A DNA stretch of 64,000 bases from the NCBI GenBank assembly GCA_018660415.1, contig JABJKG010000006.1, positions 142,448-206,447 on the forward strand. The letters run 5' to 3'. The stretch is from a bacterium (GTDB lineage: Bacteria; Babelota; Babeliae; Babelales; UBA12409). Positions 40,931 to 46,437 of the stretch are shown piece by piece (the first letter of the stretch is position 1; each line of letters begins with the position of its first letter). The notes under the pieces were generated by a model. The model was not told the DNA's origin, ran no database searches, and saw only the letters and a list, made by a program, of their open reading frames with translations. A program made the position numbers and the translations under genes.

Positions 40931-41965
40931 ATGATTGATTTTAGAGATTTAGTAAAACACGGCATTCACTTCGGTCACCAAACTAGTAAATGGTGTCCAA
41001 AAATGGCTCCTTATATCTGGGGACATAAAAACGGAATTCACCTTATTGACGTTTCCAAGTCAGCATTTGCTATGGATCAAGCAGCAAAATTCTTAGAATC
41101 TGTTGTAGCTGAAGGTAAGACTGTCTTATGGGTGGGTACTAAAAAATCTGCTCAAAAAGTTATTGGCGATGCTGGTAAAAAACTTAACATGCCAAGCGTA
41201 ACCTATCGTTGGATTGGTGGAACATTAACCAATCACTCACAAGTTAAAAAATCTGTAACCAAGTTGTTACATTATGAAGATATTATTGAAAAATCAGATG
41301 ATTTTTCTTACACCAAAAAAGAACTTAATGTTTTTGGTAAGTTGGTAGAAAGATTACAACGTACTGTTGGTGGAATCAGGACATTGAAGATGCCTTTGGG
41401 CGCAGTTGTGTTAGTAGACGTTCGTAAAGAAGATACTGCATTACGTGAAGCAAATATTGCTGGAATTCCTGTAGTTTCTCTTGTTGATACTAACAGTGAT
41501 CCATCATTGGTAGATTATATCATTCCTGCTAATGATGATTCTCCTAAGTCTATTCAGTTCGTTATTGAGCACTTAGTTAAGGCTGTTGAATCTGGAAAAG
41601 AGCAAGCTGATAAAGTAATGGCTGAAAAGAAAAAAGTTGCTGCTGAAAAGGCTGCAAAAGCAAAAGAAACAGCTGTTCCAAAAGCTGCTGCAAAGAAAGC
41701 TCCAGTTAAAGCTGCTGCAAAAGCGCCAGCTAAAGCTGCTGCCAAAGCACCAGTAAAGGCTGCTGATAAAAAAGAAGCTGCACCTAAGAAGGAAGCGGTT
41801 AAAAAGGCTGCTCCTAAGGCTGCTCCTAAAAAGACAACTGAAGCTCCTAAGGAAGCTGAAGTAAAGGCTGCTGATAAAAAAGAAGCTGCACCTAAGAAAG
41901 AAGCGGTTAAAAAGGCTGCTCCTAAGGCTGCTCCTAAAAAGACAGAATCAACAGATAAAAAATAA
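40931..41965 (+). CDS. rpsB: 30S ribosomal protein S2 with a ~100-aa Lys/Ala/Pro-rich C-terminal extension
   Basis: The S2 core is LVKHGIHFGHQTSKWCPKMAPYIWG ... GIPVVSLVDTNSDPSLVDYIIPANDDS. The tail is AEKKKVAAEKAAKAKETAVPKAAAKKAPVKAAAKAPAKAAAK... and includes a duplicated 28-aa unit. Confidence 0.93.
   Translation: MIDFRDLVKHGIHFGHQTSKWCPKMAPYIWGHKNGIHLIDVSKSAFAMDQAAKFLESVVAEGKTVLWVGTKKSAQKVIGDAGKKLNMPSVTYRWIGGTLTNHSQVKKSVTKLLHYEDIIEKSDDFSYTKKELNVFGKLVERLQRTVGGIRTLKMPLGAVVLVDVRKEDTALREANIAGIPVVSLVDTNSDPSLVDYIIPANDDSPKSIQFVIEHLVKAVESGKEQADKVMAEKKKVAAEKAAKAKETAVPKAAAKKAPVKAAAKAPAKAAAKAPVKAADKKEAAPKKEAVKKAAPKAAPKKTTEAPKEAEVKAADKKEAAPKKEAVKKAAPKAAPKKTESTDKK
41753..41944 (+). repeat. Two copies of an 84-nt direct repeat (108-nt period) inside the rpsB tail
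   Basis: The unit gtaaaggctgctgataaaaaagaagctgcacctaagaa.gaagcggttaaaaaggctgctcctaaggctgctcctaaaaagaca occurs at 41753-41836 and 41861-41944 with a single mismatch. Confidence 0.9.
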
Positions 41966-41972
41966 ACTGTTG

Positions 41973-42064
41973 GGAGAGGTGTCTGAGTGGTCGAAAGAGC
42001 ACGATTGGAAATCGTGTATGTCTCGAAAGGGGCATCGAGGGTTCGAATCCCTCTCTCTCCACCA
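41973..42064 (+). tRNA. tRNA-Ser (GGA), long variable arm, CCA encoded
   Basis: Hand fold: acceptor GGAGAGG/TCTCTCC (one G-U pair), anticodon stem with loop TTGGAAA, a long variable arm, T arm GAGGG-TTCGAAT-CCCTC, then A-CCA. Confidence 0.88.
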
Positions 42065-42077
42065 GAATTGATTAAAA

Positions 42078-42168
42078 GCTTGGGAAGCTCTAAGAATCGA
42101 TATGCTTTATTTTGTCAGGTCCGAGAGGAAGCAGCAAGGGGTATATTGGTTTTGTAGGCTTCCCTTTT
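42078..42168 (+). ncRNA. ffs: Small (4.5S-type) signal recognition particle RNA
   Basis: It contains the conserved domain IV core GTCAGGTCCGAGAGGAAGCAGCAAGG, with a GNRA-type GAGA tetraloop. The closing helix is GGGAAGC (42082-42088) paired with GCTTCCC (42158-42164), followed by a T-run. It sits immediately upstream of dnaX, as in many bacteria. The ends are approximate. Confidence 0.8.
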
Positions 42169-42228
42169 TTTATGGAGAAGTAATCGTTGGTGAGTTTGTT
42201 CAAGTACCTAGTCTAAAGTGAGCTTATT

Positions 42229-43938
42229 ATGAATAAGACATATCTCAATCTGGCCCGTAAATGGCGTTCAAAAAACTTTGACCAAATAATAGGTCAAGAT
42301 TTGTCTGTGCGCATGATCAAGAACACCTTGTATTTGAATCATTTTTTTCCTGTTTACCTTTTTGCAGGACAGCGTGGTTGTGGAAAAACCTCTACGGCTC
42401 GTGTATTTGCTGCTGCTATCAATTGTGAGATGTTAAGTGAGTTTCAGAAGGATCCTCGTAAGACAGTACTACCGTGCTTTGTCTGTACATCTTGTAAAGC
42501 TATGGAAGAAGGTAATCACCCTGATTTTATCGAAATGGATGCTGCATCGCATACCGGTGTTGATAATGTACGTCAGATTATTGAAGCGGCTTCATTACTC
42601 CCTTTGTTGGGTCGTAAAAAGGTTTATTTAATTGATGAAGCGCACATGTTAAGCAAGGCTGCCTTTAATGCGTTTTTAAAAATATTAGAAGAGCCTCCGG
42701 CATCAGTGTTATTTATCTTGGCTACCACTGACGATAAAAAAATTATAGAAACTGTTCGTTCTCGTTGTTTCCAACTTTTTTTTAGAGCAATTGCTCAACA
42801 AGACTTACATAAATTATTGGTTTCAGTCTGTGAAAAAGAAGAGATTGGTTTTGATGAGGCTGGCCTACAGTTATTGATTCGTGAAACTGAAGGTTCTGCT
42901 CGTGATGCGCTTAATTTATTAGAGCAGGTTCGTTTTTCTAGTGATAAGGTAACAGAAGAACAGGTATTGCGAGTATTGGGTTCTATTAGTGACGATCAGA
43001 TTTGTACTTTAACTAACCATATAATTTCATCTAATGATTCATCACCACAGTCATTAATTTCATATATAGCCACTCTCAAGTTAGAAACATTTGCTCCTGA
43101 GATTGTTTGGCAACGATTCATGCTTGTGTTGAAGATGATTGTGTGGCAAAAATATGGGGCCCCTGTTGCCAATATTTCGATGACCGAGGAGTTAAAGTCT
43201 ACACTGGCAAAAGTACCCTTAAAAGTCATGATCTCGCTCTTTCATTTTTGCTGCCAGCAAGAGCAACTGTTTTTAAAATCTGTAGATAAACATTTGTTCT
43301 TATCTATGTTTTGGGTTCGTATTTGGGCTATTGCACATAGTCAGGCATCAGTTGGAGATGTAAAGGCTACTCCTGTTAAGACAGAACCGCCAGTACCGCA
43401 AAAAAAAACAGTTGACCGTGTTGTGCCTCAACCGGCTGCACCGGTAGCTGTAAGTCGTACAGAGCATCCCAATGAATGGGCAGCGTTTTTAGAAAGTGTT
43501 GCCAAGATTGACGATCAGCTAGTGGTTTCATTGTTTGCTCAGGCAAAGCTCAAGGCGCATGATAAAGCTTCGGGATTATTAGAGGTGGTTTTTCTTAAGA
43601 AGTTTGAACTGTTTCAGGATATTTTTAGTAGAAAAGAATCAGAGTGGTTTGCGATATTGAAATCGGTGTTTGGCGATAATGTTCAGTTAGAGCCTATTTT
43701 TGAAGAGAGTAGTAAGGCGCAGCCGCAAGCGCCAGCAGTGTCTAAGTCTGTTGCAAAGCAGGCTATGCCAGAAGCGCCAGTTAAAAAAGTTTTTTATCAA
43801 TCAAATAATAAAGTATCAGTAACAAATAAAGATGTTCCTCTGGATGTTTCAGATAAAGCTACATGGGCAATGACTCATTCTTTACTAGAGCACTTTCCTG
43901 GAACGGTTACCGAATTCAAGGAGGATGGGGATGAATAA
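42229..43938 (+). CDS. dnaX: DNA polymerase III subunit gamma/tau
   Basis: It has YLFAGQRGCGKTSTARVFAAAINC (Walker A), a zinc module CFVCTSCKAM, VYLIDEAHML (Walker B) and SRCFQLFF (sensor). The C-terminal region is Pro/Ala-rich. Confidence 0.93.
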   Translation: MNKTYLNLARKWRSKNFDQIIGQDLSVRMIKNTLYLNHFFPVYLFAGQRGCGKTSTARVFAAAINCEMLSEFQKDPRKTVLPCFVCTSCKAMEEGNHPDFIEMDAASHTGVDNVRQIIEAASLLPLLGRKKVYLIDEAHMLSKAAFNAFLKILEEPPASVLFILATTDDKKIIETVRSRCFQLFFRAIAQQDLHKLLVSVCEKEEIGFDEAGLQLLIRETEGSARDALNLLEQVRFSSDKVTEEQVLRVLGSISDDQICTLTNHIISSNDSSPQSLISYIATLKLETFAPEIVWQRFMLVLKMIVWQKYGAPVANISMTEELKSTLAKVPLKVMISLFHFCCQQEQLFLKSVDKHLFLSMFWVRIWAIAHSQASVGDVKATPVKTEPPVPQKKTVDRVVPQPAAPVAVSRTEHPNEWAAFLESVAKIDDQLVVSLFAQAKLKAHDKASGLLEVVFLKKFELFQDIFSRKESEWFAILKSVFGDNVQLEPIFEESSKAQPQAPAVSKSVAKQAMPEAPVKKVFYQSNNKVSVTNKDVPLDVSDKATWAMTHSLLEHFPGTVTEFKEDGDE

Positions 43939-45276: not shown

Positions 45277-45843
45277 ATGAAACTACTTTTTTATTTAAGC
45301 ATCGGGTTATTTCTGGCTATACATGTATATGCAGTTCCTCCATTGCAAAGGTCAAATTCGTGTAAAGAGTTGTCTATGGGAGGGGAGCTGCCAGCATGGT
45401 TTCATAAATATTTAAAAACTCAAAAAAAAAATGGTACTAAGGAGCGGGAAGAGCTTCGACCATGGATAGATTCTTTAGAGTTTTCGCGTACAACACTTAT
45501 GGGGCATGTAGAGCAAGCTTCTCTGTTTATTGGCTCTAATGAGGCAGACACTGCAACGCGTATTCGTACGGTTCGAGATTTTTATGGTGAGAAGCAACCA
45601 GCCTCATTGGAAGGTTTGGTTAAAGGGGGTAATATTCTGGGCTATAGACGCTTTTTGGGACGTAAGGTATCAGTTGGTAATCTTGATTCTACTTTTTATA
45701 CACAAGAGGCTATTATCCATTGCACTCCTTCTATGTTACATACTTTGTCTACTTGTACTGAGGTAATGGGTAACAAAGAAGAAGATCATTCACCTAACGT
45801 AGTTGCATTTTTATTCCACTTGTTTGCTTCTTTATCTAGCTAA
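45277..45843 (+). CDS. Hypothetical secreted protein (family D)
   Basis: It has the signal peptide MKLLFYLSIGLFLAIHVYA. It shares CKELS, PAWF, TQK, FYG, YRRFL and VAFLFHL positions with the next gene. Confidence 0.5.
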   Translation: MKLLFYLSIGLFLAIHVYAVPPLQRSNSCKELSMGGELPAWFHKYLKTQKKNGTKEREELRPWIDSLEFSRTTLMGHVEQASLFIGSNEADTATRIRTVRDFYGEKQPASLEGLVKGGNILGYRRFLGRKVSVGNLDSTFYTQEAIIHCTPSMLHTLSTCTEVMGNKEEDHSPNVVAFLFHLFASLSS

Positions 45844-46437
45844 TTGGTGTGGGTTATAAAAAAGCATTTTTATTTATACATCTTTTTTTTAGTCACTCAA
45901 CTTAATGCGATGGATCCTAAGGTCCAATTACAAGGCACCTGTAAGAATTTATCTATTGTACCCAGAGAATTAGATCAACCAGCATGGTTTCAATTATATA
46001 TAACAACCCAAAAACAAGCCGCTGTGAATCTAGGGCAATCTGTTCATCGTGATTTGCTGGAACATGCACCAGAATCTATCTATAGGGTTTCTTTATTACA
46101 ACATCTAGAGCGTGTTTTTACATTTATAAATAAAAATCCTAACGACCTTGATCGACGTCTTGAAAACATAAATTGTTTTTATGGAGCTACGCAAGCTACA
46201 TTGCCAGTTAATCATGTTTCAGGAATGGAGGTCAATCGATTTAGAAGGTTTTTAGAGCATCAAATGTCTACAGAGCCACTGGGAAATAATGCTCGACAGG
46301 CTACGACTCTTTATGTTATTTCTCCAATGATGTTAAAAACGATACAGGCTTGTAAGTTACTACAAGGACCGGTTTTTGCATCTCGACAAAAAAAGATAGC
46401 AGCTTTTTTGTTTTGCCTCCATGCTGTTTTAGAATAA
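45844..46437 (+). CDS. Hypothetical secreted protein (family D paralog)
   Basis: It starts (TTG or GTG) directly after the stop of the previous gene. The shared positions CKNLS, PAWF, TQK, FYG, FRRFL and AAFLFCL are collinear with 45277..45843. Confidence 0.5.
   Translation: MVWVIKKHFYLYIFFLVTQLNAMDPKVQLQGTCKNLSIVPRELDQPAWFQLYITTQKQAAVNLGQSVHRDLLEHAPESIYRVSLLQHLERVFTFINKNPNDLDRRLENINCFYGATQATLPVNHVSGMEVNRFRRFLEHQMSTEPLGNNARQATTLYVISPMMLKTIQACKLLQGPVFASRQKKIAAFLFCLHAVLE

What the first reader, a model, noticed from the sequence alone, without database searches (positions are those of the whole stretch)
43399..43415. A9 slippery run in dnaX positioned to give a truncated gamma-like subunit
Codons 391-394 of dnaX read C AAA AAA AAA CA, with nine consecutive A residues at 43400-43408. 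The run lies exactly where the conserved clamp-loader ATPase domains end and the Pro/Ala-rich tau-specific region begins. A -1 shift, or one extra A from transcriptional slippage, gives AAC AGT TGA, which is two codons and then a stop. Losing one A gives a stop after 13 codons. This mirrors the two known ways of making gamma. E. coli uses -1 ribosomal frameshifting on A AAA AAG with a stop one codon later. Thermus thermophilus uses transcriptional slippage on an A9 run. Stimulators are weak: I see no obvious upstream SD-like element, and only a modest downstream hairpin GTTGA-n12-TCAAC starting at 43411.
Basis: partly seen in the sequence, partly recalled or inferred. Interest (0 to 1): 0.55.

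Follow-up and report, generated by a model that had tools for sequence, protein, structure and literature searches.

The report
Slippery A9 tract in dnaX linker
A run of nine A's sits in the flexible linker of the DNA-replication clamp-loader gene dnaX of a Dependentiae (TM6) bacterium. It could yield a shortened gamma-like subunit by polymerase slippage, as in Thermus, but nothing shows this particular run is selected for that purpose rather than incidental.

Summary
dnaX (42229-43938, 569 aa) carries A9 at 43400-43408 (codons 391-394, CAA AAA AAA ACA). One extra A gives ...PQKKNS* (395 aa). One fewer A gives a stop after 12 more codons (405 aa). The run lies in the middle of a disordered linker (residues 374-413), 20 residues after the last helix of the clamp-loader core.

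Against it:
- The four nearest relatives (53-68% aa identity) have no A-run or slippery heptamer in this linker.
- Given the peptide QKKT and this genome's codon usage, A9 arises about 29% of the time.
- The nearby out-of-frame stops are no closer than chance, and there is no stimulatory RNA structure or SD-like element.
- Plain A9 runs are equally common in DnaX's second disordered linker across the phylum.

For it:
- Long A/T runs are avoided in this genome's coding sequence.
- Across 91 Dependentiae dnaX genes, A10-A12 tracts are about 30-75 times enriched in exactly this linker.
- One clade keeps the tract in all eight members surveyed.
- In six lineages the gene changes frame at the tract, with gamma in frame and tau out of frame.

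Verdict: a plausible Thermus-type transcriptional-slippage site and a new member of a known kind. Its programmed status is unproven.

The parts
42229..43938 (+). dnaX ORF (569 aa, tau in the zero frame, 64.0 kDa)
   Evidence: ORF list. TIGR02397 matches residues 5-364 at 335 bits. Pfam PF13177 and PF22608 match. E. coli tau/gamma is the best solved relative at E 1e-62. The exact protein is NCBI MBT4855829.1.
42229..43341 (+). Clamp-loader core (domains I-III, residues 1-371), shared by tau and the putative gamma-like product
   Evidence: The AlphaFold2 model places the last domain III helix at 354-371. The dnaX_nterm profile ends at residue 364.
43348..43467 (+). Disordered Pro/Ala/Val-rich linker 1 (residues 374-413), not conserved in sequence among relatives
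   Evidence: pLDDT is below 50 for residues 374-413. Alignment A1 shows no conservation in this stretch.
43400..43408 (+). A9 homopolymer (codons 391-394, CAA AAA AAA ACA), the candidate slippage site. It is also an in-phase A_AAA_AAA heptamer.
   Evidence: Sequence and heptamer scan. The run is identical in independent contigs L167-L169.
43413..43415 (+). TGA stop in the -1 frame, reached by A10 transcripts or a -1 shift. The product is 395 aa ending ...PQKKNS.
43445..43447 (+). TAG stop in the +1 frame, reached by A8 or A11 transcripts. The products are 405 and 406 aa ending ...QLTVLCLNRLHR.
43411..43432 (+). It is not a significant structure.
   Evidence: Folds of 43409-43440 and 43409-43470 give z = -0.88 and -0.61 against shuffles.
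43468..43707 (+). Folded tau-specific domain (residues 414-493). It would be lost in the truncated product.
   Evidence: The AlphaFold2 model shows helices and strands over 414-491 with pLDDT 71-90. W417 is invariant in alignment A1, and L431, F436, Q438, F455, F462, D464, W473 and F491 are at least 90% conserved.
43708..43935 (+). Second disordered linker (residues 494-532) and the conserved C-terminal motif (..DVSD..W..LL..FPGTV.E). Both would be lost in the truncated product.

Best explanation
The A9 tract is a Thermus-type transcriptional-slippage site in dnaX.

Inferred mechanism: RNA polymerase transcribing the T9 template realigns the nascent RNA in a fraction of rounds. This makes mRNAs with A10 (or A8/A11) instead of A9. 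Ordinary translation of A9 (or A12) mRNAs gives full-length tau (569 aa). A10 mRNAs terminate two codons after the tract (395 aa, ...PQKKNS). A8/A11 mRNAs terminate after 12 further codons (405/406 aa).

Each short product holds the complete clamp-loader core (domains I-III) plus about 20 linker residues. Each lacks the tau-specific C-terminal domains, so it is a gamma-like subunit.

Shown here: the tract, its frame and the stops; its position in a disordered linker after the core; and the recurrent, and in one clade conserved, use of longer A tracts at this linker in Dependentiae.

Inferred, not shown: that slippage occurs at a useful rate on A9 in this organism, and that the short product is functional or selected.
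For: - Anatomy.
- Position in the disordered linker, 20 residues after the last core helix.
- Long A and T runs are avoided in this genome's coding sequence. A>=9 is 4 observed against 8.4 expected (P = 0.033). T>=9 is 0 observed against 5.3 expected. This implies such runs are costly here. Only two internal coding A>=9 runs remain in 55.6 kb, and one of them is in dnaX at the one place where truncation yields an intact core.
- Phylum survey: A>=10 tracts are about 30-75 times enriched in this linker compared with the rest of dnaX and the flanks.
- One clade keeps A10-A12 in all eight members despite 55-82% aa identity in the core and unalignable flanking linker sequence.
- Six lineages (L033/L122, L044, L045, L046, L136/137, L138/139) have gamma in the zero frame and tau in the -1 or +1 frame, switching exactly at the tract. 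L045's frames are uncertain because a run of N lies in its linker.
- The split is reproduced in diverged independent assemblies. L138/L139 are 95% nt identical and both carry A11. L033/L122 are 80% nt identical and both carry A10.
- L033/L122 is the sister group of the window's subclade.
- In folded parts of Dependentiae dnaX, A>=9 runs are depleted (4 observed against 8.0 expected). In linker 1 they are not. This fits truncation at the linker being tolerated.
- Precedents from the literature: T. thermophilus dnaX A9 gives about 1:1 tau:gamma by slippage (PMC1088944, PMC5009743). Two-ORF dnaX genes with A10 are known (PMC3711429). An A11 tract in tssM gives 20-25% frame change (PMC4256274).
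Against: - The four nearest relatives lack any A-run or heptamer in the linker. The tract is therefore lineage-specific.
- No closer relatives exist in the collections searched.
- P(A9 | QKKT, local codon usage) is about 0.29.
- The out-of-frame stops are at chance distance.
- Across the phylum, plain A9 runs are as common in linker 2 (13 A9 and 2 A10, none split) as in linker 1.
- In unsplit genes, linker-1 A>=9 runs match the synonymous-resampling expectation.
- A second internal A10 sits in an unrelated hypothetical gene 1.5 kb downstream. Such tracts are therefore tolerated elsewhere in this genome.
- Baranov et al. (PMC1088944) warn that AT-rich bacteria may have polymerases that slip less on A9.
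- There is no transcript or protein evidence.
Confidence: 0.5

Rival explanations
1. The tract is incidental. It is a by-product of AAA/CAA-biased codon usage (38% GC genome) acting on a Gln-Lys-Lys-Thr stretch in an unconstrained, disordered linker. Any truncated DnaX made by occasional slippage is tolerated noise, not a programmed gamma. The organism, like its nearest relatives, essentially makes only tau.
For: - Nearest relatives have no tract.
- P(A9 | QKKT) is about 0.29.
- The stops are at chance distance.
- A9 runs are equally or more frequent in linker 2 of DnaX across the phylum, without any split genes.
- In unsplit genes, linker-1 A>=9 runs equal expectation.
- Another internal A10 lies in the nearby hypothetical gene at 45422-45431.
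- There is no stimulatory structure.
Against: - Long A/T runs are otherwise avoided in this genome's genes and in folded parts of Dependentiae dnaX.
- The same linker is demonstrably used for poly-A recoding in several Dependentiae lineages, including the sister group of the window's subclade.
- From published work on other bacteria (PMC1088944, PMC5009743), A9 is long enough to slip measurably. A short product is therefore expected whether or not it is selected.
Confidence: 0.4
2. E. coli-type -1 programmed ribosomal frameshifting. Ribosomes slip back one base on the in-phase heptamer A_AAA_AAA (43401-43407) and terminate at TGA 43413-43415. Alternatively, they slide on the poly-A tract.
For: - The heptamer is in the correct phase, with a -1 stop two codons later.
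- Ribosome sliding on lysine-encoding poly(A) is known (own knowledge, Koutmou et al. 2015).
Against: - The motif ends in AAA, not AAG. A_AAA_AAA is much less shift-prone than A_AAA_AAG in E. coli (PMC5009743).
- There is no SD-like element within about 10-15 nt upstream.
- The downstream fold is not distinguishable from shuffled sequence.
- Split relatives need both -1 and +1 net changes at the tracts. By the criterion of Antonov et al. (PMC3711429), this points to transcriptional rather than ribosomal recoding.
Confidence: 0.07
3. DNA-level phase variation. Replication slippage at the A9 tract switches the population between tau-encoding and gamma-only alleles.
For: Homopolymers are hypermutable. 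Among Dependentiae lineages the genome-encoded frame does flip.
Against: - All contigs read are 100% identical and carry A9.
- The exact 569-aa protein is on at least 24 contigs.
- None of the A6, A7, A8, A10, A11 or A12 variant proteins exists among about 15 billion proteins.
- Tau is essential in studied bacteria (bioRxiv 10.1101/2022.11.10.516041), so a tau-less allele could not persist without slippage.
Confidence: 0.03

Closest known systems
Thermus thermophilus dnaX (A9 transcriptional slippage; Larsen et al. 2000, as described in PMC1088944 and PMC5009743)
   Same: - Single ORF encoding tau in the zero frame.
- A run of exactly nine A's in the sense strand after the clamp-loader core.
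- Stops nearby in both alternative frames.
- No ribosomal stimulators needed.
- The predicted short product lacks the tau C-terminal domains.
   Different: - Here there is no experimental evidence for mRNA heterogeneity or for two products.
- The tract is not conserved in the nearest sequenced relatives.
- The organism is an AT-rich (38% GC) Dependentiae, where A9 can arise easily by codon bias. In GC-rich Thermus an A9 is highly improbable by chance.
Two-ORF dnaX genes with poly-A, where tau needs recoding (Antonov et al. 2013, PMC3711429: 17 genes from 12 genera, nine with A10, -1 at the DNA level)
   Same: - Dependentiae relatives L033/L122 (A10, tau in the -1 frame) have this arrangement.
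- The tract lies at the equivalent place, after domain III.
   Different: - The window's gene is a single ORF, so it is not of this type.
- Other Dependentiae lineages (L044, L046, L136/137, L138/139) have A11 followed directly by TGA/TAA, with tau in the +1 frame. Tau then needs one fewer or two more A's. That paper reports only the -1 direction for dnaX.
E. coli dnaX -1 programmed ribosomal frameshifting (A_AAA_AAG + upstream SD + downstream stem-loop)
   Same: - Same gene and the same outcome: a gamma that lacks the tau C-terminal domains.
- An in-phase A-rich heptamer.
- A -1 stop within a couple of codons.
   Different: - The heptamer ends in AAA, not AAG.
- There is no SD-like stimulator and no significant stem-loop.
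- The site is about 20 residues after domain III, compared with about 55 in E. coli.
Poly(A)-tract frameshifts rescued by polymerase slippage in reduced AT-rich endosymbiont genomes (Blochmannia dnaX and dnaG, PMC3017870; Buchnera, cited in PMC5009743)
   Same: - Host-associated bacteria with small AT-rich genomes.
- dnaX is interrupted at a poly-A tract in the tau-specific part in some lineages, and tau is presumably restored by slippage.
   Different: - In Blochmannia this is read as erosion tolerated through slippage, and it affects many genes.
- In Dependentiae the A>=10 tracts are concentrated in one dnaX linker and are rare in the flanking genes.
Citrobacter rodentium tssM1 / Yersinia pseudotuberculosis tssM3 (A11 tract, PMC4256274)
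   Same: - One poly-A tract gives a long and a short variant.
- Which variant is genome-encoded differs between relatives, as in the Dependentiae dnaX clade.
   Different: It is a different gene and function. For tssM the slippage is experimentally shown (20-25%), and both forms are required.
Caulobacter crescentus DnaX (gamma made by ClpXP partial proteolysis; bioRxiv 10.1101/2022.11.10.516041)
   Same: Produces a gamma-like form lacking the tau C-terminus from a single tau ORF.
   Different: The mechanism is post-translational. Nothing here tests for it. It remains a possible route to gamma in the tract-less relatives.

Membership tests
DnaX (DNA polymerase III gamma/tau) | Match to the dnaX N-terminal equivalog profile and to the AAA+ clamp-loader domains | tested here: met
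   TIGR02397 scores 335 bits against a cut-off of 250, over residues 5-364. PF13177 and PF22608 match. E. coli tau/gamma is matched at E 1e-62.
Thermus-type dnaX transcriptional slippage | Sense-strand homopolymeric A run of 9 or more inside dnaX, downstream of domain III, with tau in the zero frame | tested here: met
   A9 at 43400-43408, codons 391-394, in the linker at residues 374-413, within a single 569-aa ORF.
Thermus-type dnaX transcriptional slippage | Stop codons close to the run in both alternative frames | tested here: met
   TGA after 2 codons in the -1 frame and TAG after 12 codons in the +1 frame. These distances are not unusual for this gene (P = 0.27 and 0.63).
Thermus-type dnaX transcriptional slippage | mRNA population heterogeneous in A-run length | not testable with these tools
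   No transcript data were available. Assemblies show only A9 at the DNA level.
Thermus-type dnaX transcriptional slippage | Two protein products (tau and a shorter gamma) that depend on the uninterrupted run | not testable with these tools
   This needs a western blot or mass spectrometry together with an AAA-to-AAG recoded control.
Thermus-type dnaX transcriptional slippage | Conservation of the run in related genomes | tested here: inconclusive
   The run is absent from the four nearest relatives at 53-68% aa identity. A10-A12 tracts are present in the same linker in 10 of 91 Dependentiae genes, and a tract of A10-A12 is retained throughout one clade of eight lineages. No closer relative is available.
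E. coli-type dnaX -1 programmed ribosomal frameshifting | In-phase A_AAA_AAG slippery heptamer | tested here: not met
   The heptamer is A_AAA_AAA.
E. coli-type dnaX -1 programmed ribosomal frameshifting | Upstream Shine-Dalgarno-like stimulator about 10 nt 5' of the site | tested here: not met
   The upstream sequence GAACCGCCAGTACCGC has no SD-like motif.
E. coli-type dnaX -1 programmed ribosomal frameshifting | Stable stem-loop a few nucleotides 3' of the site | tested here: not met
   MFE is -8.8 and -16.9 kcal/mol, with z = -0.88 and -0.61 against shuffles.
Two-ORF dnaX (tau requires recoding) | Zero-frame stop at or just after the slippery tract, with the tau C-terminus in another frame | tested here: not met
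   The window has one continuous ORF. The feature is met in relatives L033/L122, L044, L046, L136/137 and L138/139.

The most novel reading that the evidence does not exclude
Dependentiae have repeatedly evolved, and in one clade that includes a Chromulinivoraceae MAG have fixed, a poly-A slippage site in the first disordered linker of DnaX as their way of making both gamma and tau. The genome-encoded frame flips freely between tau-in-frame and gamma-in-frame. The gamma-in-frame states include an A11-plus-immediate-stop arrangement with tau in the +1 frame, which the dnaX literature found here does not report. On this reading the window's A9 is an independent, recently gained, functional instance. 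That would make this phylum a natural series for how gamma/tau recoding originates from a simple Lys-codon tract.
Probability: 0.35. Interest if true: 0.55.

Novelty: new member of a known kind. Interest (0 to 1): 0.42.

Why it matters
Why bacteria make a short gamma alongside tau is still unsettled. The fact that gamma is produced by unrelated mechanisms in different bacteria (ribosomal frameshifting, transcriptional slippage, proteolysis) is one of the main arguments that gamma matters.

A further phylum of obligate intracellular bacteria with reduced genomes would add independent support to that argument. In this phylum poly-A tracts recur at the core/tau junction, are conserved in one clade, and even split the gene.

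It would also offer graded natural variants: no tract, A8-9, and A10-12 in either frame. These could be used to test how such sites arise.

For annotation, it shows that 'frameshifted' dnaX in Dependentiae MAGs should not be called a pseudogene or an assembly error.

For the window itself the practical consequence is modest. It predicts a 45-kDa DnaX form that can be tested.

Tried and rejected
- E. coli-like stimulators: folding of the 3' and 5' flanks gave nothing beyond shuffled controls. Rfam found only tRNAs and SRP RNA near the gene.
- Conservation in the closest relatives: fetched L001-L007. None has a tract or heptamer.
- Search for closer relatives or run-length variants: exact look-ups of the A6, A7, A8, A10, A11 and A12 products found nothing. 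The contigs that carry the exact protein are 100% identical, so they carry no evolutionary information.
- Significance of the out-of-frame stops: rejected as evidence, because the distances are typical for this gene.
- Enrichment of A>=9 in linker 1 of unsplit genes, conditional on the protein sequence: no excess, 6 observed against 5.3 expected. The A9 class alone therefore carries no signal. The signal lies in A>=10 tracts and split genes.
- Assembly error as the cause of the split genes: rejected. In-frame (L038) and split (L136) genes both have A11 but in different codon phase. Split states recur in diverged independent assemblies. A>=10 runs are rare in the flanks of the same contigs.
- The in-phase CAA AAA AAT GA motif at the end of domain III in another clade: present in only about 5 of 15 members, and explained by the C-Q-K-N-E protein sequence. 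Not pursued.
- The first attempt at the codon-shuffle null timed out and was rerun.
- The Larsen et al. 2000 paper is not held. Its content is cited through PMC1088944 and PMC5009743.
Full report
**1. What is in the window**

- The ORF 42229-43938 (+) encodes a 569-aa protein.
- It is DnaX. TIGR02397 (dnaX_nterm) matches residues 5-364 at 335 bits against a cut-off of 250. Pfam DNA_pol3_delta2, AAA and the DnaX ATPase lid match. The best solved relatives are E. coli tau/gamma, with window residues 4-402 aligned to E. coli residues 2-393 at E 1e-62.
- The gene follows tRNA-Ser (41973-42064) and the SRP RNA (42079-42170), and it overlaps der downstream.
- The closest database proteins are annotated Candidatus Babeliales / Dependentiae (TM6). 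The best is only 68% identical.
- Positions 43400-43408 are nine A's. In the zero frame the codons are CAA AAA AAA ACA (Q391 K K T394).
- An extra A, or a -1 shift, reads AAC AGT TGA and gives 395 aa (44.7 kDa) ending PQKKNS.
- One A fewer, or two more, reads 12 codons and then TAG at 43445-43447, giving 405 or 406 aa.
- A9 or A12 gives tau, 64 kDa.
The same A9 is present in independent contigs from other samples.

**2. Where the run sits in the protein**

- An AlphaFold2 model built on a 34-sequence alignment has mean pLDDT 74.5. Its layout is:
  - clamp-loader core ending with helix 354-371
  - low-confidence linker at 374-413
  - folded tau-specific domain at 414-493
  - second low-confidence linker at 494-532
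  - conserved C-terminal motif
- The alignment of relatives shows the same pattern of conservation.
- The run (391-394) is in the middle of linker 1. A truncated product would keep the whole core and lose everything specific to tau.

**3. Is the run, by itself, more than chance?**

Only weakly.
- A8+ runs are not over-represented in the window: 25 observed against 30.8 expected.
- I used 57 long ORFs as genes, 55.6 kb in total. Sense-strand A>=9 runs number 4 against 8.4 +/- 2.5 expected when codons are redrawn for the same proteins (P = 0.033). T>=9 runs number 0 against 5.3 expected.
- Long runs are therefore avoided in this genome. By the logic of Baranov et al. (PMC1088944), this suggests they are costly here.
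- Two of the four A>=9 runs lie at gene ends. The two internal ones are in dnaX and in a hypothetical gene at 45422-45431 (A10).
- Given QKKT and local usage (CAA 70%, AAA 64%), A9 has a probability of about 0.29.
- A -1 stop within two codons occurs at 27% of positions in this gene. A +1 stop within 13 codons occurs at 63%.
- The downstream GTTGA-n12-TCAAC pairing and all larger folds are indistinguishable from shuffles, with z from -0.6 to -1.3. There is no SD-like element upstream.

**4. Relatives**

I collected dnaX loci from genomes and metagenomes. After removing near-duplicates there were 91 Dependentiae genes.

*(a) Nearest relatives.* L001/L007, L004 and L006 (53-68% aa identity) have no A-run of 7 or more and no in-phase slippery heptamer with a nearby stop in linker 1. 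L006 alone has a weak TTTAAAT. No closer relative exists in the collections. The 90% cluster holds only the protein itself and fragments.

*(b) Phylum-wide pattern.*
- Linker 1 is a hotspot for long tracts. A>=10 runs occur in 10 of 91 genes, or 0.445 per kb. The rest of dnaX has 0.015 per kb and flanking DNA has 0.006 per kb per strand.
- An NJ tree of the core places eight lineages (L107, L038, L124, L136/137, L138/139, L044, L045, L046) in one clade. L045's record is titled Candidatus Chromulinivoraceae. Every member of the clade has A10-A12. In six members the tract lies 29-34 codons after the conserved E345, and in L046 and L045 it lies 45 and 55 codons after it. Core identity within the clade is only 55-82%, and the flanking linker sequence is unalignable.
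- Within that clade the genome-encoded frame flips. L107 (A12), L038 and L124 (A11) encode tau in frame, with a stop 1-4 codons away in the other frames. L136/137, L138/139, L044 and L046 read ...(Q/E)KKK-stop in the zero frame (A11 followed directly by TGA or TAA), and their tau C-terminus continues for 173-223 codons in the +1 frame.
- L033/L122 (A10) read VKKKDY..* in frame, with tau in the -1 frame. This pair is the sister group of the window's subclade.
- A neighbouring clade (L022, L029, L031, L116) has A8-A9 followed directly by TAA/TAG.

*(c) The split states are not assembly noise.*
- L138/L139 (95% nt identity) both have A11. L033/L122 (80% nt identity) both have A10.
- In-frame and split genes can have the same tract length in a different codon phase.
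- A>=10 runs are almost absent from 260 kb of flanks of the same contigs.

*(d) Direction of the frame changes.* Both -1 and +1 net changes are needed in different lineages. By the argument of Antonov et al. (PMC3711429), this points to transcriptional realignment rather than a directional ribosomal shift. Ribosome sliding or a -2 shift at the stop cannot be excluded.

**5. The caveat that limits transfer to the window**

- Plain A9 runs are common in both disordered linkers. Linker 2 (q494-526) holds 13 A9 and 2 A10 runs, and none is associated with a frame change.
- Conditional on the protein sequence, unsplit genes show no excess of A>=9 in linker 1: 6 observed against 5.3 expected. Linker 2 shows an excess (12 against 6.6), and folded parts show a deficit (4 against 8.0).
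- What marks linker 1 out from linker 2 is:
  - tract length of 10 or more (Fisher p = 0.0025)
  - gene splitting (p = 0.006)
  - a stop codon directly abutting the tract (p = 0.046)
- The window has none of these three features. It has A9, a single ORF and a stop two codons later.
- It does share the property that truncation there yields an intact core. It also lies in a genome that otherwise avoids such runs.

**6. Mechanism and likelihood**

- Published work shows that A9/T9 tracts slip during transcription in bacteria, adding or removing bases. T. thermophilus dnaX A9 gives about 1:1 tau:gamma, and an A11 tract in tssM gives 20-25% (PMC1088944, PMC5009743, PMC4256274).
- Some A10/A8 dnaX mRNA, and hence a 45-kDa gamma-like protein, is therefore to be expected here. 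I rate this at about 0.7-0.8.
- Whether the tract is maintained for that purpose is open. I put the Thermus-type programmed reading at about 0.5 and the incidental-tract reading at about 0.4.
- E. coli-type ribosomal frameshifting is below 0.1.
- DNA-level phase variation is about 0.03. All contigs carry A9, and no variant proteins exist among about 15 billion.

**7. Comparison with what is known, and novelty**

- The window's arrangement is the Thermus one. It fails the defining features of the E. coli cassette and is not a two-ORF dnaX (see the membership table).
- Two-ORF dnaX genes with A10 are already described for 12 genera (PMC3711429). Poly-A frameshifts in dnaX of Blochmannia are read as slippage-rescued erosion (PMC3017870).
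- I found no paper that mentions dnaX together with Dependentiae.
- The finding is therefore a new, unproven member of a known kind. The phylum-level pattern is a new lineage-level instance that includes a +1-frame A11-stop configuration. It is the more interesting by-product of this check.

Noticed in passing
window 45422-45431 (ORF 45277-45843, +): An A10 run lies in the sense strand at codon 49 of a 188-aa hypothetical protein (..TQKKNG..). A paralogue sits directly downstream (45844-46437). Neither has an NCBIfam match. The A10 is identical in four independent contigs. It is the only other internal coding A>=9 run in the window, and slippage there would truncate the protein early.
   Followed up: partly
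Related loci L033, L122, L044, L045, L046, L136-L139 (linker after domain III; e.g. L044 2630-2640, L136 2612-2622, L033 2571-2580): In these Dependentiae genomes and metagenome contigs, dnaX changes reading frame exactly at an A10/A11 tract. The gamma-like stop lies in frame at the tract (A11 loci) or five codons after it (A10 loci L033/L122), and the conserved tau C-terminus lies in the +1 or -1 frame. The split is reproduced in diverged independent assemblies. Automated annotation would probably call these genes frameshifted or truncated.
   Followed up: yes
Second disordered linker of DnaX in related loci (query residues 494-532; window 43708-43824 has only A6): Across unsplit Dependentiae dnaX genes, A9 runs occur in this second linker in 12 of 74 genes. 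Synonymous resampling predicts 6.6. None is associated with a frame change. Truncation there would remove only the conserved C-terminal motif. This is unexplained.
   Followed up: partly
window 40931-41965 (rpsB), repeats about 41752-41836 and 41860-41944: Ribosomal protein S2 carries a C-terminal Ala/Lys/Pro-rich, histone-H1-like extension of about 100 residues. It contains an 85-nt direct repeat with a 108-nt period. Relatives' S2 proteins are 308-338 aa, against 344 aa here.
   Followed up: no
L126 1101-1193; L027 327-2951: L126 has a dnaX-like gene (54% identical over residues 5-365) that ends right after domain III (..NRKKKD*). It has no A tract and no tau part, and unrelated small ORFs follow it, so it may be a gamma-only copy. 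L027 has two tandem dnaX-like pieces that share an identical stretch, which may be a duplication or a misassembly.
   Followed up: no
Related loci L010, L035, L099, L016, L093 (about 22 codons after E345): In one large Dependentiae clade, the end of domain III reads C-Q-K-N-E, encoded as TGC CAA AAA AAT GAA. This is an in-phase A_AAA_AAT heptamer with TGA immediately following in the -1 frame. It is present in only about 5 of 15 members, so it is probably a by-product of the protein sequence.
   Followed up: partly
window 41973-42170: tRNA-Ser(GGA) and the small SRP RNA lie immediately upstream of dnaX. Relatives share the gene order TLC ATP/ADP translocases - rpsB - dnaX - der - hibernation factor, which fits an energy-parasitic intracellular lifestyle.
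   Followed up: no
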